Shown: positions 10,047 to 57,000 of the stretch, piece after piece
How the letters are laid out: every line of letters starts with the position of its first letter
Numbering within the stretch: the first letter of the stretch is position 1
Origin: Patescibacteria group bacterium
GTDB taxonomy: Bacteria; Patescibacteriota; Patescibacteriia; Magasanikbacterales; GWA2-37-8
Direction of reading: 5' to 3'
Length of the DNA: 64,000 bases
Assembly: GCA_041649475.1 (NCBI GenBank)
Contig: JBAZNA010000001.1
Coordinates: 197,022 to 261,021 of the forward strand
The notes under the pieces: generated by a model
What the model saw: only the letters and a program-made list of their open reading frames with translations
The model's database searches: none
Told to the model about the DNA's origin: nothing
Translations under genes and position numbers: made by a program

Positions 10047-10075
10047 TTGACAAAAAAATATTTTTAGTGTATTCT
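10047..10075 (+). promoter_or_regulatory. sigma70-like promoter TTGACA-N17-TATTCT driving G+C-rich ORF a
   Basis: Consensus -35 hexamer with 17-nt spacer. A 5'UTR hairpin (CCCGGACC...GGTTCGGG) and a GGAAGGAG RBS lie before the ATG at 10150. Confidence 0.5.
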
Positions 10076-10149
10076 TGGTGATTATTCCTTAGGTAAGGAA
10101 GCCCGGACCATTCCGGTTCGGGTATGATGATAGAGGAAGGAGAAAAAAG

Positions 10150-10497
10150 ATGGGAATGCGCGCGAAGGACTGGGAGGCGGCCCAGGCCGTTTTCTTGAAA
10201 GAGGCCGGTGCCGACCCTGACCCCGACGATTCGTGGACCGTAGTTCGGTCGCCGAGTTTGCAGGAGCTTCTGCTGGCAAAGGAGCAGGAGTTCCCGGTTG
10301 AGCTCGAGCTCTCCGACGGCCGCAAGATGACCGTGTTCGTCGAGGATATCAAGGACCCCGACGCGCACGGCGAAGTGGAGGTGTACGTAATGTACGTCGC
10401 CAACGGCAACCGGCGCCGGCGGTACCTGCACTTCACCCCCGACGTCTACGAGCCCAGGGTCAACGTCTACCCCGAGCCCAAGGAATCCGTGGGCTGA
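10150..10497 (+). CDS. hypothetical protein, compositionally foreign (G+C-rich cassette a)
   Basis: 115 aa (MGMRAKDWEAAQAV...) with a GGAAGGAG RBS 7 nt upstream and G/C-ending codons. Followed by terminator GCCCAAGC-ATCT-GCTTGGGC + T7 (10521..10548). No motif recognised. Confidence 0.5.
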   Translation: MGMRAKDWEAAQAVFLKEAGADPDPDDSWTVVRSPSLQELLLAKEQEFPVELELSDGRKMTVFVEDIKDPDAHGEVEVYVMYVANGNRRRRYLHFTPDVYEPRVNVYPEPKESVG

Positions 10498-10587
10498 CCC
10501 CACTTCCTCCCTCGTCTCACGCCCAAGCATCTGCTTGGGCCTTTTTTTGTTGATTTTGTTATGGCTTTCGGGTAAGATACGAGCACT

Positions 10588-17840: not shown

Positions 17841-18013
17841 ATGACCAAACATCAAGGCGTCTCAAGCGGAATCTACGGCCTGGCATTCATCGGCGCTCTT
17901 ATTTATTATATCCAACACGCCACCACATTCTGGATGGGCGTGCTGGGATTTTTGAAGGCCCTGGTTTGGCCGGCATTTTTGATTTATAAATTGTTGGAAT
18001 TTTTACACATGTA
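17841..18013 (+). CDS. small hydrophobic protein (57 aa, two predicted TM helices)
   Basis: MTKHQGVSSGIYGLAFIGALIYYIQHATTFWMGVLGFLKALVWPAFLIYKLLEFLHM. Below the ORF-track size cutoff. An extended -10 TGtgaTATAAT lies upstream, and a hairpin terminator at 18020..18055 is shared with the convergent gene. Confidence 0.3.
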
Positions 18014-18073
18014 AATATAAAGATCCTGTTGCTTCGCAAGCAGGATCTCTTTTTCTCCTTTCACATTATCCTT

Positions 18074-18400
18074 TCACAGGACCACTTCTTCGTAGTAGTC
18101 GGCCCGCTCGTGGCTAGCGTAGGGGCTTGATTTGGCATCCTTGAGCGCAGCTGCGGCGAACGGTTCGTCTATGGTGACCTCGGCAACGTTCTCGCACTTG
18201 GCGATCAACAGCTGACAACCATCACAGCCGAATCCGGTCACGGTTGCCAGAACCAGCGCCTCCTTGATCTTCGGTACCCGGCCCTCTTTGCGGATGGCTT
18301 CGGCCACATCGGCCGCGTTTTCTCCACCGCAGTCGGTCCAGAACTTGAAAACAACCTCATCACCCTTGCGCACACTAACGAGTCCGGTTTTTCCGTGCAT
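18074..18400 (-). CDS. hypothetical Cys-containing protein, compositionally foreign (G+C-rich cassette c)
   Basis: 108 aa with four Cys (C..., GCDGC, KC). AAGGAGG RBS with 7-nt spacer begins immediately after the TAA stop of the upstream FAD-oxidase gene. A hairpin terminator follows. Confidence 0.5.
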   Translation of the reverse strand: MHGKTGLVSVRKGDEVVFKFWTDCGGENAADVAEAIRKEGRVPKIKEALVLATVTGFGCDGCQLLIAKCENVAEVTIDEPFAAAALKDAKSSPYASHERADYYEEVVL

Positions 18401-18411
18401 ATCACCCCTCC

Positions 18412-19713
18412 TTAGGTAACTTTACATGTTTTTTCATAAAGATCAAGAAAAATATCCTCCGGGTCAGTTTTCTTTTTAACCGCGTAATAATTATCTTTGT
18501 TCCAGGTTTTCCAAAAGTCATCTTCCGAATAATAGTTGGTGGAAATCAAGGTTTTGATGCCGCCAATAGCCATCAATTCTTCCTCAAACATTTTGTAATA
18601 GTTTTTGTCCGGCCGTTTTGGCAGTCCGTAGATGGCCAGATCTAAAAACAACTCGTCTTTCATTTTTTCAAAAAATTCTCCGGAAATCCATTCATAATGC
18701 CGGGCAATTTTATAAGGCACGCACCATAAAGGGAAAAAATTTATCTCTTTTTCATACCATTTCATAAAATTTTCACCTTCAGAAAACGGGATGAAGGTGT
18801 CAACCGTTACTGGTATCTTATCAGCCGGGATAACTTTGCGAAATTTTTGCACCAGTTTTAATAAGCTTGAAGAATTAATAAATTTACCAAAAAACAAACG
18901 TCCCAGAAATGATTTTGGGGTGACATTGGTCACACCTTTGTCATAGCGGAAAAAATAATCAATGGTTTTAAGATAATCTTCTTTTCGTATTTTTGTGCTT
19001 TTATAATATACCCTCATCCAGTCATAACTGTGGGTGTAGGGCGCCGTGTCAACAAAATTTCCTGTACTTAATACTAACTCGGTGGGGGAATGGATTATAC
19101 CATCCATAAAATCAACATCTTTTTTGGTGTAGTGATCCCAGATGGTAGCTTTATACTCCTTAATATCCACACATTTTTGATAAGTGACTTTAACAAACGG
19201 CTTGGCCGGAACCAATCTGAATTTGAGTTTAGCCAGAAGGCCCAAAGTGCCAAAGGTGCCGTGTATCATTTGAAATAATAAACTGTTGTCATTATCCGGA
19301 GAGCAGGTCAGAACCTCGCCTTGCGCGGTAATAATCTCATATTCCAGACAAGTGTCGTGGAAACCCCCATATTTGTATGACATTGATTCTAATGAACAGC
19401 CGGAAACCGCGCCACCGATGGTAATTGTTTTCAGTTCCGGTACAACAATCGGCACCAGGCCATATTTCAGAGTGGCTGTTGCCAAATCTACAAAAGTTAC
19501 GCCTGATTCGGCAACACAAGTCCGCGCATCAGGGTCAATACTGATAATTTCATTTAAATCACTGATGTCAATTTCTTCATTCCAGTATTTCTGTTCTTCA
19601 GGTTTGGGCACTACATGAGAAACCGCTTTCTTTTTAAATAATACCGGCTTGCCGTTTTTGTGCGCTTTCAGCTGTCCGGCAATTCTTTCAATTTTTTGTG
19701 CATGAGTTATCAT
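18412..19713 (-). CDS. FAD-binding oxidoreductase (PCMH-type FAD-binding domain; DHCR24/alditol-oxidase-like)
   Basis: 433 aa with an FAD-binding segment ...TIGGAVSGCSLES... and a substrate-domain C-terminus. Confidence 0.65.
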   Translation of the reverse strand: MITHAQKIERIAGQLKAHKNGKPVLFKKKAVSHVVPKPEEQKYWNEEIDISDLNEIISIDPDARTCVAESGVTFVDLATATLKYGLVPIVVPELKTITIGGAVSGCSLESMSYKYGGFHDTCLEYEIITAQGEVLTCSPDNDNSLLFQMIHGTFGTLGLLAKLKFRLVPAKPFVKVTYQKCVDIKEYKATIWDHYTKKDVDFMDGIIHSPTELVLSTGNFVDTAPYTHSYDWMRVYYKSTKIRKEDYLKTIDYFFRYDKGVTNVTPKSFLGRLFFGKFINSSSLLKLVQKFRKVIPADKIPVTVDTFIPFSEGENFMKWYEKEINFFPLWCVPYKIARHYEWISGEFFEKMKDELFLDLAIYGLPKRPDKNYYKMFEEELMAIGGIKTLISTNYYSEDDFWKTWNKDNYYAVKKKTDPEDIFLDLYEKTCKVT

Positions 19714-19878: not shown

Positions 19879-21693
19879 ATGAAAACATTTAAAATGTTTT
19901 CTGGAGTTGTAGGAATTTTTTTATTTATTCTTCTCGGTCTGGCCGGACCAAACACCGCGTATGCGGCAATAGCAACGTCTCCCAATCTTGGAGATGCAGC
20001 TAGTTTTTCAGTTTTGGCCGGTTTATCAATGAGCGCCGCCGGCGCCGGCACTACAATTTCCGGTGATTTGGGCCTAAGCCCAGGTCTTGAGACCTCAAAA
20101 ACCGGGCCTTGGACAGTGGGGGGATCACAATATTTTGGTACAACTGGTTTGTCCGCGACTGCTCAAGGGGCTGCTTTAATTGCTTATGGTAACCTGGCAG
20201 GTCAAACAACCAGCGGGGTGTGGGGTACAACCCCATGGACTCCGGTGCCGGGTGTGTGGACTTCAGCCAGTGATAAAACGTTTACCGGAACGATCTATCT
20301 TAACGGCACTTACGATGATGTTTGGGTTTTTCAGGTTGGGGGTGACTTTACGTTCAGTGGTTCAATTGTTTTGCAAGGCAATGCCCAGGCCTGTCATGTG
20401 TTTTGGCAGGTTGGCAGCAGTGCGACCATCGGTTCAGACAGTACTTTTGTCGGAACACTCATTGCGCAAACTTCTGTCACGCTGGTCTCTGGTGCAACTG
20501 TTAATGGCAGAATTATAGCTCTCAATGGTTCTTTAACAACAGACGGAAATAATATTTCCGGACCAACATGTGCGACTGCGCCTGTAGTTGCAACACCCGT
20601 ATCCGGTGGCCAGCGTTATGGAACGATTAGTGTTGTTAAAACAGTCATCAACGACAATGGCGGAACCAAGACCGTTGCTGATTTTCCACTGTTCGTTAAT
20701 GGCACAGCCGTTGTTTCTGGTCAGACCAACGTTTTCCCCGCGCCTGCCGGTGTGTATTCTATTACCGAAACCTCTGATCCTAATTACACCCAGACATTTT
20801 CCGGTGATTGCAACTCCACCGGGCATCTGGATCTTAATGTTGGCAATACCGCGGTCTGTATAATTACAAATGATGACATTGGCGCGCCGGTAGTTGTTCC
20901 GCCCGTACCACCACTCATTGATGTGATAAAAGTACCGGATCCTTTGGCTTTGCCGGCTGGTCCAGGTCCGGTGGCATACACCTACACGCTCCGTAATATT
21001 GGAACGGTTCCAGTAACCGACCTAACGATGGTTGGCGATACTTGTAGTCCAATAAATCTTATTTCCGGCGACACAAATGGCGATTCAAAGCTTGATATGG
21101 ATGAAACTTGGGTATACCGCTGTTCAACAACGCTTTCAGAAACTCACACCAACACCGTTGTCGCGACCGGATGGGCCAATGGCATCAGTGCGGTTGATAT
21201 CGCGCATGCTACGGTCGTTGTCGGCGCACCAATAATTCCACCTTTGATTCACATTACAAAAATTCCTAATCCGTTAACACTCTTGGCCGGAGGGGGAATG
21301 GTTACCTATACTAAACAAGTAACCAACCCGGGAACGGTTGCGTTAAGCAACGTCCGTGTTACTGATGATAAATGCAGTTCGGTGGTATATATTTCCGGCG
21401 ACACAAATAGCGATTCAAAGCTTGATCCAACCGAGACATGGACATATACCTGTCGGACCAGAATAACCAAAACTACGACTAACACCGCCGTGGTAACCGG
21501 TGAAGCCAATGGTCTGACTGTGAGAGATTTTGCAGTCGCCACTGTCGTTGTGACCGCGGTTGCTCCGAAATTACCAAATACCGGGGTTGCTTCCAGTGAA
21601 AATCATATTCCCTGGAATAGTATCATACTGGTTGGTGTCCTTATATTAATTTCAACTTCAACAATTGTCGTTCTAAAGAAACGCAGAATTTAA
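19879..21693 (+). CDS. LPXTG-anchored surface protein: signal peptide, ice-binding-like (DUF3494) domain, Cna-B-like domain, two DUF11 repeats, LPNTG anchor
   Basis: N-terminus AIATSPNLGDAASFSVLAGLSMSAAGAGTTISGDLGLSPG is DUF3494-like. Two about 120-aa tandem repeats (...ISGDTN[GS]DSKLD..ETW.Y.C.T...T.TNT.VVTG.ANG...). C-terminus LPNTG plus TM helix plus KKRRI. Confidence 0.75.
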   Translation: MKTFKMFSGVVGIFLFILLGLAGPNTAYAAIATSPNLGDAASFSVLAGLSMSAAGAGTTISGDLGLSPGLETSKTGPWTVGGSQYFGTTGLSATAQGAALIAYGNLAGQTTSGVWGTTPWTPVPGVWTSASDKTFTGTIYLNGTYDDVWVFQVGGDFTFSGSIVLQGNAQACHVFWQVGSSATIGSDSTFVGTLIAQTSVTLVSGATVNGRIIALNGSLTTDGNNISGPTCATAPVVATPVSGGQRYGTISVVKTVINDNGGTKTVADFPLFVNGTAVVSGQTNVFPAPAGVYSITETSDPNYTQTFSGDCNSTGHLDLNVGNTAVCIITNDDIGAPVVVPPVPPLIDVIKVPDPLALPAGPGPVAYTYTLRNIGTVPVTDLTMVGDTCSPINLISGDTNGDSKLDMDETWVYRCSTTLSETHTNTVVATGWANGISAVDIAHATVVVGAPIIPPLIHITKIPNPLTLLAGGGMVTYTKQVTNPGTVALSNVRVTDDKCSSVVYISGDTNSDSKLDPTETWTYTCRTRITKTTTNTAVVTGEANGLTVRDFAVATVVVTAVAPKLPNTGVASSENHIPWNSIILVGVLILISTSTIVVLKKRRI

Positions 21694-21696
21694 GTT

Positions 21697-22359
21697 ATGC
21701 GTTCCGTAAGAAAATCTAGGCGATCCAAAAGTAAAAGTCCGTCAAAACGGTCCTTGTTTATCGTCAGTATTGTGGGGGTTGCATTTTTTCCGGCAACCAT
21801 TCTTTTTCCGACCCTACTTCCCGTTAGTCAAATTTCACAAATTAATCAAATCCCGCTAGGTGTAGTTGGAAATAAGTTAGCCGACGCCATCGTTTTACCG
21901 GAACAAATAAGTCCGGGAATTCCGATTCATCTCAAAATTCCGAAAATCCAGGTTGATACTGTTCTTGAACAAGTGGGCCTCCTGCCCAACGGAACAGTGG
22001 GTGTGCCGAAAGGCCCTGCTGCCGCCGGGTGGTTCAATCTTGGACCGCATCCCGGAGATATTGGCAGCGCAGTTATTGCCGGCCATTATGGTCGCTGGCA
22101 AAATGGTGCAAATTCAGTATTTAATAATTTAAATAAGTTGAGGAAAGGTGATAATTTATTCGTTGTTGATGAAAATGGAGCGACCACTACTTTTGTGGTA
22201 CGTGAAAGCCGAAAGTATGACCCGAACGCTGATGCTTCAGCTGTGTTTAGCTCCAATGACGACAAGTCACATCTTAACCTCATTACTTGTGAAGGAAGTT
22301 GGAATAAAGCTGCCAAAAGTTATTCCGGCCGGTTAGTAGTATTTGCAGATAGGCAGTAG
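21697..22359 (+). CDS. sortase
   Basis: Catalytic motif LNLITCEG (TLxTC) and a conserved His earlier (VIAGHYG). The start is 4 nt after its LPXTG substrate gene. Confidence 0.75.
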   Translation: MRSVRKSRRSKSKSPSKRSLFIVSIVGVAFFPATILFPTLLPVSQISQINQIPLGVVGNKLADAIVLPEQISPGIPIHLKIPKIQVDTVLEQVGLLPNGTVGVPKGPAAAGWFNLGPHPGDIGSAVIAGHYGRWQNGANSVFNNLNKLRKGDNLFVVDENGATTTFVVRESRKYDPNADASAVFSSNDDKSHLNLITCEGSWNKAAKSYSGRLVVFADRQ

Positions 22360-25822: not shown

Positions 25823-25928
25823 AAATGATTTTAGTTTTTTAAATTCGGTTGAATACATTATAACATAAAAAAAGAGGCAATTCCACCGGCGGCAGAACTG
25901 CCTTGAAACCTTCTTCTGGTCTTCCTCC

Positions 25929-26282
25929 TTAGGTGTCAACCGTCTCCACCGGAGGGTTGGGCACTGTTGGCCCCCAGAGAGGGACGAATTCCGTGCTCTG
26001 GAAGTTCTTGCGACACAACTCTTCAAGACCAGGGGTATCGCCATCGTAGATGACCCGGGAGGCCGTAATCACGGCCCGATCCTGCTTGGACCCGAACCCC
26101 ATCTGGGCGGCCAAGTTGTAGGCGTTCCTAGCCGAAGGGGCTTCACCGTTTTTTTGCACTTCCGCGCGAATTGCGTCAGCAAAACGCTTGGTGAGATTGC
26201 CGCCGCGGCCAACCACAACTTTCATCAAAACCACGTCGCCTCGGAAAACGATGACCATTCCCGGAACAGCAGTCGTGGACAT
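25929..26282 (-). CDS. hypothetical protein, compositionally foreign (G+C-rich cassette d)
   Basis: 117 aa (MSTTAVPGMVIVFRGDVV...). AAGGAGG RBS with 7-nt spacer, TTGACA-N17-TAAAAT promoter at 26319..26347 (minus strand), and a hairpin plus T-run downstream. Confidence 0.5.
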   Translation of the reverse strand: MSTTAVPGMVIVFRGDVVLMKVVVGRGGNLTKRFADAIRAEVQKNGEAPSARNAYNLAAQMGFGSKQDRAVITASRVIYDGDTPGLEELCRKNFQSTEFVPLWGPTVPNPPVETVDT

Positions 26283-26318: not shown

Positions 26319-26347
26319 ATTTTAACATGGGAATTTGCCAGTGTCAA
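26319..26347 (-). promoter_or_regulatory. sigma70-like promoter TTGACA-N17-TAAAAT for cassette d
   Basis: Read on the minus strand; lies between the HU terminator hairpin (about 26365..26395) and the cassette RBS. Confidence 0.45.
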
Positions 26348-29440: not shown

Positions 29441-29580
29441 ACTATCCCTGCATTATAAACATAATTTTAAAATAAAAAAAGAGCTTCCCTGGGGAGGGAA
29501 GTTCAGTGGGGGTTGGCTCCGGTGTGATCGCCTGATGGCGAATTGGAGCACGGTAGGAAAGAGCAGGGCGGGGCGGCTGG

Positions 29581-29922
29581 CTAGCCGGCGGCGGAAGCGG
29601 CGATGGGGGCGATCTTGGGCTGGATGTCGATCACGGGGATCGGCTCGGGCAGACCGTCGAAGCGCTGGCGGAGCCAGTCGATCTCGGGCTCCGAGGCCTC
29701 GCCCATGAAGATCTCGATGTAGAACGTCCCCCTGATGAGGCCCTCGTACTTCAGCTTGAAGCCGGGGATCTCGTCGTCGAAGTCGGCCTTGTGCGGCCTG
29801 TTGACGTACCTGTTGAAGTCGTTGAGCGAGCAGTACCTGACGCTGCCGTCCACGAACTGGATCCGTACGGCCCTTGTCTGCAAGGTCGTGTCCGGGAACG
29901 TCATCAGCTTCTGGATCGGCAT
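29581..29922 (-). CDS. hypothetical protein, compositionally foreign (G+C-rich cassette e)
   Basis: The ORF track extends to 29994 with a TTG start. An internal ATG at 29922 (MPIQKLMTFPD..., 113 aa) is preceded by AAGGAGAGGGAG and is preferred. TTGACA-N17-TACCAT promoter at 30038..30066 (minus) and terminator CTTCCCT-CCCC-AGGGAAG + T7 at about 29470..29500. Confidence 0.45.
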   Translation of the reverse strand: MPIQKLMTFPDTTLQTRAVRIQFVDGSVRYCSLNDFNRYVNRPHKADFDDEIPGFKLKYEGLIRGTFYIEIFMGEASEPEIDWLRQRFDGLPEPIPVIDIQPKIAPIAASAAG

Positions 29923-30082
29923 CTCCCTCTCCTTGGGACTACGAGCTCGTGTGACCATCTTGTTATGCCTCCCTTGTTTCCGTGTTGGGCCCAATGCCCC
30001 TAAACTTGTTGGCCTTGTCCAGGCCGTGATGGGCTAAATGGTATCACAATAATACGATTATGTCAAGAAGAATGGCCAAAAA

Positions 30083-41855: not shown

Positions 41856-41884
41856 TTGACCAATTGTCTTTTTTATGCTAAAGT
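41856..41884 (+). promoter_or_regulatory. sigma70-like promoter TTGACC-N17-TAAAGT for cassette f
   Basis: Follows the thrS terminator (GCACCC-ATTACC-GGGTG + T-run at about 41815..41845). A 5'UTR hairpin CCTGCC-AGAGAAA-GGCAGG and an AAGGAGG RBS (41917..41923) follow. Confidence 0.5.
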
Positions 41885-41931
41885 ATGTGGTTCCTGCCAG
41901 AGAAAGGCAGGTCAGAAAGGAGGCCTCTCGG

Positions 41932-42312
41932 ATGACACGGGTCATGAGTTTGATGGCTTTCTACGCGACTTATCGTCTCTTAAAGGTCGCGTACCGTGCG
42001 ACCGAGAGACAGCTTAGGCTATTCTTCGTCCCCAAGCCGGGGTGCGAGGGGGCCTACGAGGTGGATGAGCAAATCTTCGCCAAGGTTCGGACGCTCATCG
42101 TCAATTCCAGGTCGTTTCAGACCGAAATCTACCCGCTGAACGCCAGTGACGTGGGGGAAGATTTCCGCCTTGGCGACCAGGATTTCACCGGCTCGGTGAT
42201 GGTCTGGCTGAAGGAAGTAGATCCTTTAGACGCACTGTTTACCGACAGAATCAAGGAGGTTGTGTTCGGAGAGGAGAAAGAGTATCGCTTTCAGTGCGGT
42301 TCCCGCAACTAG
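41932..42312 (+). CDS. hypothetical protein, compositionally foreign (G+C-rich cassette f)
   Basis: The ORF-track start at 41875 would lie inside the -10 box. The in-frame ATG at 41932 sits 8 nt after AAGGAGG (MTRVMSLMAFYATYRLL..., 126 aa). Confidence 0.45.
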   Translation: MTRVMSLMAFYATYRLLKVAYRATERQLRLFFVPKPGCEGAYEVDEQIFAKVRTLIVNSRSFQTEIYPLNASDVGEDFRLGDQDFTGSVMVWLKEVDPLDALFTDRIKEVVFGEEKEYRFQCGSRN

Positions 42313-55838: not shown

Positions 55839-56504
55839 ATGGCGACCGCAAAACAGATTCCGTTTTTGATGGGAAGGTTGGTGGAGCATCAGTTTTACTT
55901 CTGTGCTTTGTCCACCGCAAGCGCCACGTGGGCGAGCCAAAACCCGAAAGACGCCATTGCCTTGTGCGTGGCGGCGATCGAGAATCGCCAAAAGGAGCGT
56001 CAGTCCGACCCGGCGCCTTCGCCACTCCTCACCTTGGTCGGTGCCGTCGTGATCTGGCTGGCCGTGAGGTTCGTTGCCAGTGAACACCTGGTGAAGAATA
56101 CCGAGAAGAACGCGCCGGTGAAGATTTCCTACATCTTCGATAAGGTCACCGTGTGGTTCCAGGGCAAGATCGAGGAGCGGGTCGAGGGCGAGATGGCTCT
56201 GTGCTGCCATACCCTGAACTCCGACTCGGACGATAACCTCATCATCAACCAGCTCGGCGGCGAGACCAAGGCCGAGACCGCCCTTGCCGAGGTCTTTGCC
56301 TGCTTGGAGAAGCAACCCAACGGCGAGGATGGTGCGCTACTCACTAACGGCCACGCGAACATCTTCTATGTTCGCAACACCGAAGGTGTGTTGTGCGTGA
56401 TCCAAGTGATCTGGCGCGGTGACGGTTGGACCTTCTACACCCGTTCGGTCGGTTCTCTGGACACATGTACCGAGGGCCGCCGGGTGTTCTCCCGCGCCGC
56501 ATAG
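55839..56504 (+). CDS. hypothetical Cys-containing protein with one central hydrophobic segment, compositionally foreign (G+C-rich cassette g)
   Basis: 221 aa (MATAKQIPFLMGRLVEHQFYF...), AAGGAG RBS, terminator GCCCCGCC-N9-GGTGGGGC + T7 at 56521..56555. Confidence 0.5.
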   Translation: MATAKQIPFLMGRLVEHQFYFCALSTASATWASQNPKDAIALCVAAIENRQKERQSDPAPSPLLTLVGAVVIWLAVRFVASEHLVKNTEKNAPVKISYIFDKVTVWFQGKIEERVEGEMALCCHTLNSDSDDNLIINQLGGETKAETALAEVFACLEKQPNGEDGALLTNGHANIFYVRNTEGVLCVIQVIWRGDGWTFYTRSVGSLDTCTEGRRVFSRAA

Positions 56505-56565
56505 TTTGTTCCTTCCTTCCAAGCGCCCCGCCTGTCAGATGGTGGGGCATTTTTTTATCCAAATC

Positions 56566-56594
56566 TTGACAAAACCCCTCATTTGTGCTATAGT
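56566..56594 (+). promoter_or_regulatory. sigma70-like promoter TTGACA-N17-TATAGT driving the ncRNA
   Basis: Perfect -35 consensus, 17-nt spacer, near-consensus -10; lies 10 nt after the cassette g terminator. Confidence 0.5.
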
Positions 56595-56600
56595 TAACCC

Positions 56601-56950
56601 ATTCATAGCGGATGATCGAGCCGACTTAGTCGGCTAGGAAAGTCCGAACACCCAAGATGGCAGTGGGTAACGCCCACCGCTACGGTGGCAACGCCGTGGT
56701 TGGGAAAGTGGCACAGAGACAATTCTAACCCCGACAAGCTCGGGGTAAAAGGTGAAAAGTGTATGGGGGATTTGGTTCTCGAGACCAAAGCTACTATACT
56801 CGGCTGATAGCAATATCAGTTCGTGCTAAACCCTGCCTGGTGCAAGAGCAGCGTTTCGCGGCGCAAAACCGCGGTTCGAAAAGTTCGCTCGCTAGAACGC
56901 GTTAGCAATAACGCGTCCAGATAAATGATCGTCACCTCGCCCCATTTTTA
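56601..56950 (+). ncRNA. rnpB: structured ncRNA with RNase P RNA (bacterial type A)-like conserved blocks; candidate rnpB with an atypical catalytic-domain 3' half
   Basis: No ORF over 72 aa. Blocks in canonical order: P3-like hairpin GCCGAC-TTA-GTCGGC, then AGGAAAGTCCGAAC (cf. AGGAAAGUCCGGGC), GGCAG (P7 5'), P8-like GTGGG-TAAC-GCCCAC, P9-like ACGGTG-GCAA-CGCCGT, P12-like CCCCGA-CAAGC-TCGGGG, then AAGGTGAAAAGTG (cf. GGGUGAAAGGGUG), CTGATA-GCAA-TATCAG, CTAAACCCTGCCTGGTGCAAG (cf. GGUAAACUCCACCCGGAGCAAG), and ACGCGTTA-GCAA-TAACGCGT. Three GCAA tetraloops. The expected P4 3' strand (ACAGAAnCCGGCUUA) is not found. Confidence 0.45.
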
Positions 56951-57000
56951 AACAAAATGGTGCGGAGCACAAAATTCGGCTTATAGCTATGAATAAAAAA

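What the first reader, a model, noticed from the sequence alone, without database searches (positions are those of the whole stretch)
18020..19713. Cassette c: a four-Cys 108-aa protein translationally juxtaposed to an FAD-linked oxidase
AAGGAGG with a 7-nt spacer and ATG start directly after the oxidase stop codon, and the last codons of the oxidase gene contain a promoter-like TTGATC-N16-TAAAGT. The small protein carries C..GCDGC..KC spacing suggestive of a metal or redox site. Coupling it to an FAD oxidase would make functional sense as an electron partner or maturation factor, yet its composition is foreign while the oxidase is host-like.
Basis: inference. Interest (0 to 1): 0.5.

Follow-up and report, generated by a model that had tools for sequence, protein, structure and literature searches.

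The report
Foreign small gene behind a flavoprotein
The 108-residue protein is a real, GC-rich, horizontally acquired gene from an unnamed family found in large phages and in ultra-small (CPR) bacteria, and it sits behind the FAD oxidase by accident of insertion rather than as its conserved redox partner.

Summary
A 108-aa ORF (18074..18400, minus strand; 58% GC, GC3 0.68) starts 11 nt after the stop of a 433-aa FAD_binding_4 flavoprotein gene (39% GC). An AAGGAGG overlaps that stop codon. The protein has four Cys (C24, C59, C62, C69).

The interpretation mostly fails.
- The gene is coding (omega 0.27-0.34).
- It belongs to an uncharacterised ~110-aa family: 312 cluster representatives, with no Pfam, PHROG, NCBIfam or PADLOC model and no fold neighbour.
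- The family occurs in replication or packaging regions of large phages, including Tunturiibacter phage Tunturi_5 gp18, and as solitary genes in CPR and other MAGs.
- Oxidase linkage is seen only in this genome and one close relative.
- A 54%-identical ortholog sits elsewhere with its own promoter and the same terminator.
- A Cys-poor paralog lies at 25929..26282.
- Sampled oxidase orthologs from four other lineages lack the gene, and 61 family loci contain no oxidase.

C24/C59/C62 form a co-varying triad in about half the family. All three are absent in 27%, and C69 is lineage-specific. The triad weakly resembles a BFD-like [2Fe-2S] motif lacking its first Cys. A metal site is therefore plausible but optional. 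The promoter-like motif is weak and not conserved.

The parts
18074..18400 (-). 108-aa protein gene. It is a divergent member of an uncharacterised ~110-aa family associated with phages and CPR bacteria. GC 0.58, GC3 0.68. Cys at positions 24, 59, 62 and 69.
   Evidence: ORF listed. Homologs. Purifying selection with omega 0.27-0.34 and divergence dominated by third codon positions. AF2 models with pLDDT 84 and pTM 0.81.
18407..18413 (-). Shine-Dalgarno AAGGAGG. It overlaps the oxidase TAA stop and lies 6 nt upstream of the ATG.
   Evidence: It is conserved in sister locus L001, where the oxidase ORF reads through it (AAG GAG GGA TGA C ATG).
18021..18048 (.). Hairpin plus T-run terminator, usable on both strands. 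It ends the small gene and also the convergent 57-aa ORF at 17841..18014. It travels with the cassette.
   Evidence: Found by the scan. The stem GATCCTGCT...CAGGATCTTT is conserved in L001 and in L004, which is a different genomic context.
18412..19713 (-). 433-aa VAO/PCMH-type FAD-binding flavoprotein (the 'oxidase'). Its composition is host-like and its specific substrate is unknown.
   Evidence: PF01565 at 2.9e-18, 66 bits against a cutoff of 26.4. Only sub-threshold similarity to DprE1, cytokinin dehydrogenase and lactone oxidase. More than 2760 homologs.
18419..18446 (-). Promoter-like TTGATC-N16-TAAAGT inside the last oxidase codons. It is weak and probably not functional.
   Evidence: 8 of 12 matches, so not reported by the scan. 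The -10 hexamer lies in a 10-nt stretch that is missing in L001.
25929..26282 (-). 117-aa paralog of the 108-aa protein. It lacks all four Cys at the aligned positions. GC 0.58 against flanks of about 0.36.
   Evidence: BLASTP E = 1e-7. Alignment A1. Family HMM hit at 5.5e-32.
26319..26347 (-). The paralog cassette's own sigma-70 promoter, TTGACA-17-TAAAAT with an upstream TG.
   Evidence: 11 of 12 matches. Conserved in L007.
25875..25903 (-). The paralog cassette's own intrinsic terminator.
   Evidence: 13-bp stem followed by a T-run.

Best explanation
What it is. Cassette c is a horizontally acquired small-gene unit consisting of a strong SD, an ORF and a terminator. It inserted immediately downstream of a conserved VAO-type flavoprotein gene in a Patescibacteria (CPR) genome. 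Since then it has been inherited together with that gene.

Expression (inferred). It is most likely transcribed by read-through from the oxidase promoter, because only 11 nt and no terminator separate the two genes. It is translated from its own AAGGAGG.

Family. The product is a divergent member of an unnamed ~110-aa protein family. That family is found in the DNA-replication or packaging regions of large phages and as solitary genes in CPR and a few other bacteria. Elsewhere its members are free-standing, moron-like units with their own TTGACA promoter and terminator.

Predicted protein. The predicted fold is a small alpha/beta domain (beta-beta-alpha-alpha-beta...beta) with one near-invariant Lys on strand 2 (153 of 154 representatives). 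In about half of the family, including this protein, a Cys triad (C-x34-C-x2-C) brackets the helical hairpin. This is the arrangement of a BFD-like [2Fe-2S] motif that has lost its first Cys. I infer that the triad holds a metal ion or Fe-S cluster that is accessory to the family's core function, not essential to it.

Likely role (inferred). Phage context and domain fusions to a PpnP-like nucleoside phosphorylase domain and to a phosphohydrolase domain point to nucleotide or DNA-related metabolism or its regulation. They do not point to electron transfer to the neighbouring oxidase. The adjacency to the oxidase is positional.

Shown versus inferred. Shown: coding status, family membership, distribution, absence of conserved linkage, Cys variability, and the composition contrast. 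Inferred: co-transcription, metal binding, and the nucleotide-related role.
For: - Source genome: a Patescibacteria MAG with a 963-kb contig.
- Composition: GC 0.58 and GC3 0.68, against 0.39 and 0.40 for the oxidase.
- Co-inheritance: dS between the window and sister locus L001 is equal for the small gene (0.67) and the oxidase (0.69). Omega is 0.27 against 0.087.
- Family size: the exhaustive profile search found 312 representatives at E<=1e-3, mostly 105-125 aa. Pfam, PHROGs, NCBIfam and PADLOC gave no hit.
- Phage context: members sit upstream of terS/terL with HNH or EndoVII nearby, next to a sliding clamp, and as Tunturi_5 gp18 among clamp, methyltransferase, primase, exonuclease and clamp loader genes.
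- Cellular context: CPR and other MAG loci have unrelated neighbours.
- No recurrent neighbour and no oxidase among 557 ORFs in 61 loci.
- Ortholog P0003 sits in another context with a TTGACA-17-CAAAAT promoter and the same terminator.
- The paralog at 25929..26282 has its own promoter and terminator.
- Oxidase orthologs lack the gene.
- Cys pattern over 154 representatives, written for C24/C59/C62/C69: CCC- in 71, ---- in 42, CCCC in 3. Fisher p values for pairwise co-occurrence are 1e-12 to 1e-23.
- Seven members carry the full C-x-C...C-x2-C pattern. One of them scores 23.5 bits against Fer2_BFD.
- Fusions: PF06865 (Ppnp) in P0007 and P0076, and phrog_990 (metal-dependent phosphohydrolase) in P0071.
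Against: - The gene has stayed glued to the oxidase over dS of about 0.67, with a spacing suited to translational coupling. Lineage-specific co-option as a partner therefore cannot be excluded.
- The source of the GC-rich DNA is unidentified. The closest relatives outside the subfamily are only about 25-35% identical.
- No empty-site relative was found, so insertion is inferred and not observed.
- Metal binding is unproven. Fer2_BFD hits are all below the gathering score, and hhalign against P. aeruginosa Bfd was not significant (E = 0.18).
- The nucleotide-related role rests on a few fusions and on phage gene order.
- This subfamily has lost the family's most conserved motifs: T-Q-G at the N-terminus and FNPRW near the C-terminus.
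- The Fisher tests are not corrected for phylogeny.
Confidence: 0.62

Rival explanations
1. The small Cys-containing protein is a dedicated electron-transfer partner or maturation factor of the adjacent FAD oxidase, and the two are co-translated as a two-gene module.
For: - The gap is 11 nt, with a strong SD overlapping the stop codon.
- The arrangement is conserved in the sister genome (TGA-C-ATG) with equal dS.
- There is a Cys triad with weak BFD-like similarity.
- From general knowledge, small BFD-like [2Fe-2S] proteins do partner some FAD oxidoreductases, for example HcnA or opine oxidase subunits.
Against: - The linkage is seen in only one shallow lineage.
- Oxidase orthologs at 70-74% identity in four other lineages have other downstream genes and no family member.
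- Ortholog P0003 and the paralog are solitary units elsewhere.
- 61 family loci contain no oxidase-like ORF.
- The family occurs in phage replication modules.
- C69 is not conserved, and all three triad Cys are absent in 27% of members.
- From general knowledge, known Fe-S partners of FAD_binding_4 enzymes are of the CCG or GlcF type, not BFD-like.
Confidence: 0.1
2. The family is a small enzyme or ligand-binding module of the T-fold or Ntn-hydrolase type. Examples would be a purine or pterin-binding oligomer, or a protein with an N-terminal Thr nucleophile. On this view the Cys residues are incidental.
For: - The predicted topology beta2-alpha2-beta(2) matches the T-fold order of secondary-structure elements.
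- The family consensus starts M-(A/G/S)-T-Q-G, with Thr in 118 of 154 representatives and a near-invariant Lys (153 of 154).
- Fusions to PpnP-like and phosphohydrolase domains.
Against: - The window protein and its paralog lack the consensus Thr at the aligned position.
- A 108-aa chain cannot form the four-layer Ntn sandwich by itself.
- The strong Cys co-variation argues that the Cys are not incidental.
Confidence: 0.12
3. The GC-rich segment is not a protein gene. It would instead be a structured RNA, or a decaying insert in which stop-poor GC-rich DNA produces a spurious ORF.
For: - GC-rich islands in AT-rich genomes are often RNA genes.
- The other GC-rich islands in the window show long ORFs in several frames.
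Against: - Third-position differences dominate: 16/19/38 at codon positions 1/2/3, with omega 0.27-0.34 across three orthologs and the paralog pair.
- The SD and ATG are conserved.
- There are 312 protein-level relatives.
- The AF2 fold is confident.
- There is no Rfam hit in the region.
Confidence: 0.02

Closest known systems
Phage 'morons' (self-contained promoter-gene-terminator insertions of deviant composition, as described by Hendrix and colleagues; recalled from general knowledge)
   Same: - A small single gene with base composition very different from its flanks.
- It carries its own strong SD and its own factor-independent terminator.
- Its relatives (the paralog at 25929..26282 and ortholog locus L004) also carry a near-consensus sigma-70 promoter.
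- Family members occur in phage genomes.
   Different: - It sits in a cellular CPR chromosome with no prophage around it.
- This copy lacks a convincing promoter of its own and instead abuts an upstream gene.
- No empty-site comparison was available.
BFD-like [2Fe-2S] binding domain (Pfam PF04324; e.g. Pseudomonas aeruginosa Bfd, PDB 4e6k)
   Same: - A Cys immediately before a helix-turn-helix hairpin, and a C-x2-C immediately after it.
- Similar spacing: C24-x34-C59-x2-C62.
- Local sequence pattern C-G-x-x-x-x-x-h-x-x-A-I-R...G-x-G-C-x-x-C.
- Recurrent weak Pfam hits: 14.1 bits here, and up to 23.5 bits in a relative that has the full C-x-C...C-x2-C pattern.
   Different: - All scores are below the 26-bit gathering threshold.
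- The first Cys of the C-x-C pair is Thr here, and Ala or Val in most of the family.
- The hairpin is embedded in a beta-sheet domain and is not a free-standing ~50-aa all-alpha domain.
- hhalign against Bfd was not significant.
- 27% of the family has none of the three Cys.
Fe-S or cytochrome partner subunits of VAO/PCMH flavoenzymes (e.g. GlcF with GlcD/GlcE; general knowledge)
   Same: A small Cys-containing ORF directly downstream of a FAD_binding_4 gene.
   Different: - There was no match to any such partner family.
- The gene does not co-occur with oxidase orthologs in the other lineages sampled.
Tunturiibacter phage Tunturi_5 gp18 (PP885688.1, annotated 'hypothetical protein')
   Same: It is a member of the same wider family: tblastn with family representative P0038 gave 47% identity at E = 8e-15. 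It is the only hit among 50,697 deposited phage records.
   Different: - It is 200 aa long and carries a C-terminal extension.
- It lies in a jumbo-phage replication module.
- The window protein itself gave no tblastn hit to any phage record.

Membership tests
BFD-like [2Fe-2S] domain (PF04324) | Profile score at or above the Pfam gathering threshold (26 bits) | tested here: not met
   14.1 bits, E = 0.062. Four of 40 relatives hit weakly, best E = 5.6e-4. The best relative, P0073, scores 23.5 bits.
BFD-like [2Fe-2S] domain (PF04324) | Four cluster ligands in the pattern C-x-C ... C-x2-C | tested here: not met
   The window protein has T22-x-C24 ... C59-x2-C62, so three of the four. Only 7 of 154 family representatives have all four.
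BFD-like [2Fe-2S] domain (PF04324) | Helix-turn-helix hairpin between the two Cys pairs | tested here: met
   The AF2 models place helices 26-39 and 45-55 between C24 and C59, with pLDDT above 90 in that region. This is a prediction only.
BFD-like [2Fe-2S] domain (PF04324) | Binds a [2Fe-2S] cluster | not testable with these tools
   Needs purified protein with UV-vis, EPR and metal analysis.
Dedicated partner subunit of the FAD_binding_4 oxidase | Conserved co-occurrence with oxidase orthologs | tested here: not met
   The linkage is present only in the window and the 90%-identical sister L001. It is absent from L020-L026. No oxidase is found in 61 family loci.
Phage-type moron or self-contained cassette | Own promoter | tested here: inconclusive
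   This copy has only an 8/12 match that is not conserved. The paralog has an 11/12 match and L004 a 10/12 match with TTGACA.
Phage-type moron or self-contained cassette | Own terminator and deviant base composition | tested here: met
   The terminator at 18021-18048 is conserved with the gene in a different context. GC is 0.19-0.22 above the flanks.
Phage-type moron or self-contained cassette | Inserted between genes that are adjacent in relatives (empty site) | not tested
   No syntenic relative lacking the cassette was recovered. The more distant oxidase loci are rearranged.
T-fold (tunnelling fold) proteins | beta2-alpha2-beta2 fold with significant structural similarity | tested here: inconclusive
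Ntn hydrolases | N-terminal Thr/Ser/Cys nucleophile and a four-layer alpha-beta-beta-alpha sandwich | tested here: not met
VAO/PCMH flavoproteins (the oxidase gene) | FAD_binding_4 domain above threshold | tested here: met
   PF01565 at 66.3 bits against a cutoff of 26.4. No specific NCBIfam subfamily reached its cutoff.

The most novel reading that the evidence does not exclude
The ~110-aa family would be a previously unrecognised class of small metal or Fe-S-binding (BFD-derived) proteins. Large phages would carry it in their replication or nucleotide-metabolism modules. CPR bacteria would repeatedly capture it as GC-rich, self-expressing cassettes. On this reading, cassette c and the five or more other GC-rich promoter-SD-ORF-terminator units in this 64-kb window would reflect a general, recombinase-free route of gene gain in streamlined CPR genomes.
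Probability: 0.15. Interest if true: 0.6.

Novelty: new member of a known kind. Interest (0 to 1): 0.3.

Why it matters
This result removes a tempting but unsupported annotation of the small protein as a redox partner of the oxidase.

It also defines an unnamed protein family: about 312 representative clusters, with a near-invariant Lys (153 of 154), an N-terminal T-Q-G, an FNPRW motif and an optional Cys triad. The family is shared between large phages and ultra-small CPR bacteria and has no Pfam, PHROG or NCBIfam model.

If the Cys triad binds an Fe-S cluster, the family would be a new BFD-derived module. The cluster of GC-rich self-contained cassettes in one CPR genome is a concrete handle on how these reduced genomes acquire foreign genes. 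None of this is yet surprising enough to change current views.

Tried and rejected
- Rfam on the whole window found only RNase P RNA and three tRNAs, with nothing in the cassette.
- Pfam, PHROGs, NCBIfam and PADLOC on the protein and on relatives found no family. The only signal was sub-threshold Fer2_BFD.
- A PDB sequence search with the family profile found nothing below E = 0.27.
- hhalign of the family profile against P. aeruginosa Bfd gave E = 0.18. It aligned C24 to Bfd C6 but was not significant. The Bfd sequence was taken from the PDB alignment output. The query for one search was an E. coli Bfd sequence recalled from memory and was used only as bait.
- The search for related loci with the broad alignment failed because it had no conserved stretch. 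A tighter alignment worked.
- Neighbour clustering over 61 loci found no conserved partner. The only recurring item was an ATPase upstream in three phage lineages.
- Polarised substitutions, with L004 as outgroup, give GC-to-AT 9 against AT-to-GC 2 at third positions in the window lineage. The L001 lineage gives 9 against 7. This hints at amelioration, but the counts are too small to rely on.
- I considered an intrinsic GC-richness of the family and rejected it. The median GC excess over flanks in 39 loci is only +0.011.
- tblastn of the window protein, and of three other GC-rich cassette ORFs, against 50,697 phage records gave no hits.
- I could not read AF2 coordinates, so the distances between Cys residues were not measured.
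Full report
**1. Observation**

The window comes from a Patescibacteria (CPR) MAG. The 108-aa protein is identical to 'MAG: hypothetical protein WC526_01095 [Patescibacteria group bacterium]' on a 963-kb contig.

On the minus strand, a 433-aa ORF (18412..19713) is followed after 11 nt by a 108-aa ORF (18074..18400). The junction reads TTGATC-N16-TAAAGT-TACC-TAA-GGAGGGGTGAT-ATG.
- AAGGAGG (18413..18407) overlaps the TAA stop. It lies 6 nt, not 7, before the ATG.
- The four Cys are C24, C59, C62 and C69.
- The composition break is sharp. The small gene has GC 0.581 and GC3 0.679. The oxidase has 0.386 and 0.401. The window average is 0.435.
- The promoter-like pair matches only 8 of 12 consensus positions. 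It falls below a scan threshold that already gives 6.3 chance hits in this 2.4-kb region.
- A hairpin plus T-run at 18021..18048 terminates both the small gene and the convergent 57-aa ORF.

**2. It is a real protein gene, co-inherited with the oxidase in a shallow lineage**

The first homology search found only three relatives among 5.8 billion proteins: the protein itself, P0002 (72% identity) and P0003 (54%).

P0002 comes from short metagenome contigs (L001-L003). There it follows a 90%-identical oxidase with the arrangement ...AAG GAG GGA TGA C ATG. Between the window and L001, dS is 0.67 for the small gene and 0.69 for the oxidase. The two genes have therefore travelled together since those genomes split. 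Omega is 0.27 for the small gene against 0.087 for the oxidase, and differences fall 16/19/38 on codon positions 1/2/3. Comparisons with P0003 give omega 0.28-0.34. Rfam finds nothing in the region. The ORF is coding and under purifying selection, though more relaxed than the oxidase.

**3. The linkage to the oxidase is not conserved**

- P0003 lies in a different context (L004-L006), between a divergent CmpB-like gene and an SH3-domain gene. It has its own TTGACA-17-CAAAAT promoter and a terminator.
- The stem of that terminator, GATCCTGCT...CAGGATCTTT, and the preceding AAAGGAGAA are homologous to those in the window and in L001. The transferable unit is therefore SD plus ORF plus terminator.
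- The oxidase has more than 2760 homologs, 70-74% identical in Marinimicrobia, Gracilibacteria and Elusimicrobia MAGs.
- In four such lineages the downstream gene differs: a convergent 275-aa gene, a 96-aa ORF, a DUF192 gene, or a 64-aa ORF. A family HMM finds no member in any of those loci.

**4. A Cys-poor paralog in the same window**

ORF 25929..26282 (-), 117 aa, is a paralog (BLASTP E = 1e-7, 38% identity over 58 aa). It has Arg at the C24 position, Ser at C59 and Asp at C62.

It is also GC-rich: 0.58 against flanks of about 0.36. It has an 11/12 sigma-70 promoter (TTGACA-17-TAAAAT with an upstream TG) and its own terminator. It sits upstream of a pilin-like gene. The sister genome carries it too, as P0005 at 76% identity.

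**5. The wider family**

A profile of the five sequences, searched exhaustively against 1.84 billion representatives, found 312 proteins at E<=1e-3 and 56 at E<=1e-10. Most are 105-125 aa.

The consensus is M-(A/G)-T-Q-G-h-V-S-V-x3-G-x-V-x-M-K-I-V-A-G-C-(D/N)-G-x-N-A...A-x-A-I-R...P...A-x-x-L-A...F-G-(C/S)-x-x-(C)-L-V-V...Y-R-x-T-F-x-x-P-x-F-N-P-R-W-x-x-G-T-A-D...E-V-V-D-L. Lys19 is near-invariant (153 of 154 representatives). The window subfamily has lost the T-Q and NPRW motifs.

No Pfam, PHROG, NCBIfam or PADLOC model matches the domain. A PDB sequence search finds nothing.

Domain fusions:
- Two tandem copies plus a PpnP-like domain (P0007; also P0076, one copy).
- One copy plus a phosphohydrolase domain (P0071; phrog_990 at 1.6e-26). 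Its Pfam HD_4 hit is only sub-threshold (14 bits against a 27.2-bit cutoff, E = 0.044).
- Zinc-ribbon tails (P0093).

**6. Where the family lives**

- Genome scan: Parcubacteria, Saccharibacteria, Patescibacteria, Gammaproteobacteria and Verrucomicrobiota MAGs. Neighbours are unrelated: DivIC and PPIase, a glyoxalase-like gene, and EamA.
- Viral scan: five contigs of 79-463 kb.
- In two phage contigs, a protein with two tandem copies lies just upstream of terS/terL, with an HNH or EndoVII gene nearby. In another it lies next to a sliding clamp and an HNH endonuclease.
- Among 50,697 deposited phages, only Tunturiibacter jumbo phage Tunturi_5 has a member, gp18. It lies among the processivity factor, DNA methyltransferase, ATPase, primase, exonuclease and clamp loader genes.
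- A metagenome scan added 49 loci.
- Clustering all neighbours (557 ORFs in 61 loci) found no recurrent partner outside related phages. The one exception is an ATPase upstream in three phage lineages. No ORF was oxidase-like.
- The family's GC excess over its flanks is small in general (median +0.011). It is +0.19 to +0.22 in the window's subfamily. The high GC is therefore a mark of foreign origin for this subfamily, not a property of the family.

**7. The Cys residues**

Over 154 representatives, the pattern for C24/C59/C62/C69 is as follows:

| Pattern | Count |
|---|---|
| CCC- | 71 |
| ---- | 42 |
| CCCC | 3 |
| Partial patterns | the rest |

Pairwise co-occurrence is very strong (Fisher p = 3e-16, 1e-12 and 2e-23). 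These tests are not corrected for phylogeny. No fourth co-varying ligand column was found.

C69 is essentially private to the window lineage. In the model it lies at the far end of strand 3 from C62, so by inference it is unlikely to be a fourth ligand.

The only recurrent Pfam signal is the BFD-like [2Fe-2S] domain. It scores 14.1 bits here. Four of 40 relatives hit, with best E = 5.6e-4. The score reaches 23.5 bits in P0073. P0073 is one of seven members with the full C-x-C...C-x2-C pattern. All scores are below the 26-bit cutoff. hhalign against P. aeruginosa Bfd aligned C24 with Bfd C6 but was not significant.

A metal or cluster site is therefore plausible for triad-bearing members, including this one. 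It is optional for the family.

**8. Structure**

Two AF2 runs, with 5 and 40 sequences, agree: pLDDT 84 and 83.5, pTM 0.81. The elements are beta 6-12, beta 15-22, alpha 26-39, alpha 45-55 and beta 64-68. A poorly predicted loop with a short helix follows, then beta 102-107.

**9. Interpretation**

The best-supported reading is a foreign, moron-like small-gene cassette. It landed at the 3' end of a conserved flavoprotein gene and is now probably expressed by read-through plus its own strong SD.

The encoded protein belongs to an undescribed family linked to phages and CPR bacteria. I infer that its role lies in nucleotide or DNA-related processes, and that about half of its members carry an accessory, BFD-like Cys-ligated metal site. 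The adjacency to the oxidase is positional.

Lineage-specific co-option as a redox partner cannot be excluded. It has no comparative support, and I give it about 0.1.

**10. Verdict**

Novelty is modest. This is a new member of a known kind of event, namely a horizontally acquired self-contained small gene, although the protein family itself is unnamed. Interest is 0.3.

Noticed in passing
window 10074-10587, 29453-30041, 41893-42237, 55840-56589: There are four more GC-rich islands (GC 0.56-0.59) in a 43.5% GC window. Each holds a small ORF with very high GC3 (0.70-0.90): 10150..10497 (+), 29581..29994 (-), 41875..42312 (+) and 55839..56504 (+). Most are preceded by a TTGACA -35 element and a strong SD and are followed by a hairpin plus T-run terminator. 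The 41875 unit shows only a TTGACC-like -35 and has its AAGGAGG inside the listed ORF. They have no Pfam hit and no relation to the 108-aa family. The three that were queried (all but 41875..42312) gave no tblastn hit in deposited phages.
   Followed up: partly
window 18259, 18407, 25924, 26290, 41917, 42253 (six of the eight AAGGAGG sites): The full AAGGAGG heptamer is not over-represented overall (8 copies against 6.3 expected). Six of the eight copies lie inside or at the edges of the GC-rich cassettes. A strong SD therefore appears to be a cassette feature rather than a host-gene feature.
   Followed up: no
window 18412-18424 compared with L001 1170-1186: In the sister genome the oxidase ORF reads through the cassette's SD and ends ...C-K-E-G-TGA, 1 nt before the small gene's ATG. 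The window has an extra 10 nt (TAAAGTTACC) that gives an earlier TAA. The oxidase C-terminus is therefore shaped by the cassette junction. A 14-nt tandem duplication (GTGAAAGGA...) follows the small gene's stop only in the window.
   Followed up: partly
window 18412-19713 and loci L020-L026: The FAD_binding_4 protein is unusually conserved: 70-74% identity across MAGs labelled Marinimicrobia, Gracilibacteria and Elusimicrobia, with more than 2760 homologs. It matches no specific NCBIfam subfamily and its C-terminal half has no Pfam domain. Its substrate is unknown.
   Followed up: no
L015 6001-7026, L016 5971-7344, P0007, P0076, P0071: Phage and metagenome members of the family occur as tandem double domains with C-terminal extensions. 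Others are fused to a PpnP-like (PF06865) domain or to a phosphohydrolase domain (phrog_990). An ATPase similar to Tunturi_5 gp14 recurs 0.7-3 kb upstream in three phage lineages.
   Followed up: partly
window 56600-56999: A bacterial class A RNase P RNA (Rfam RF00010, 175 bits) lies immediately downstream of the GC-rich cassette at 55839..56504.
   Followed up: no
window 19879-22359: Divergent from the oxidase lies a 604-aa secreted protein with an ice-binding-like domain plus DUF7507/DUF11 repeats and a C-terminal membrane anchor. It is followed by a 220-aa ORF that may be a sortase. This looks like a cell-surface module unrelated to the finding.
   Followed up: no
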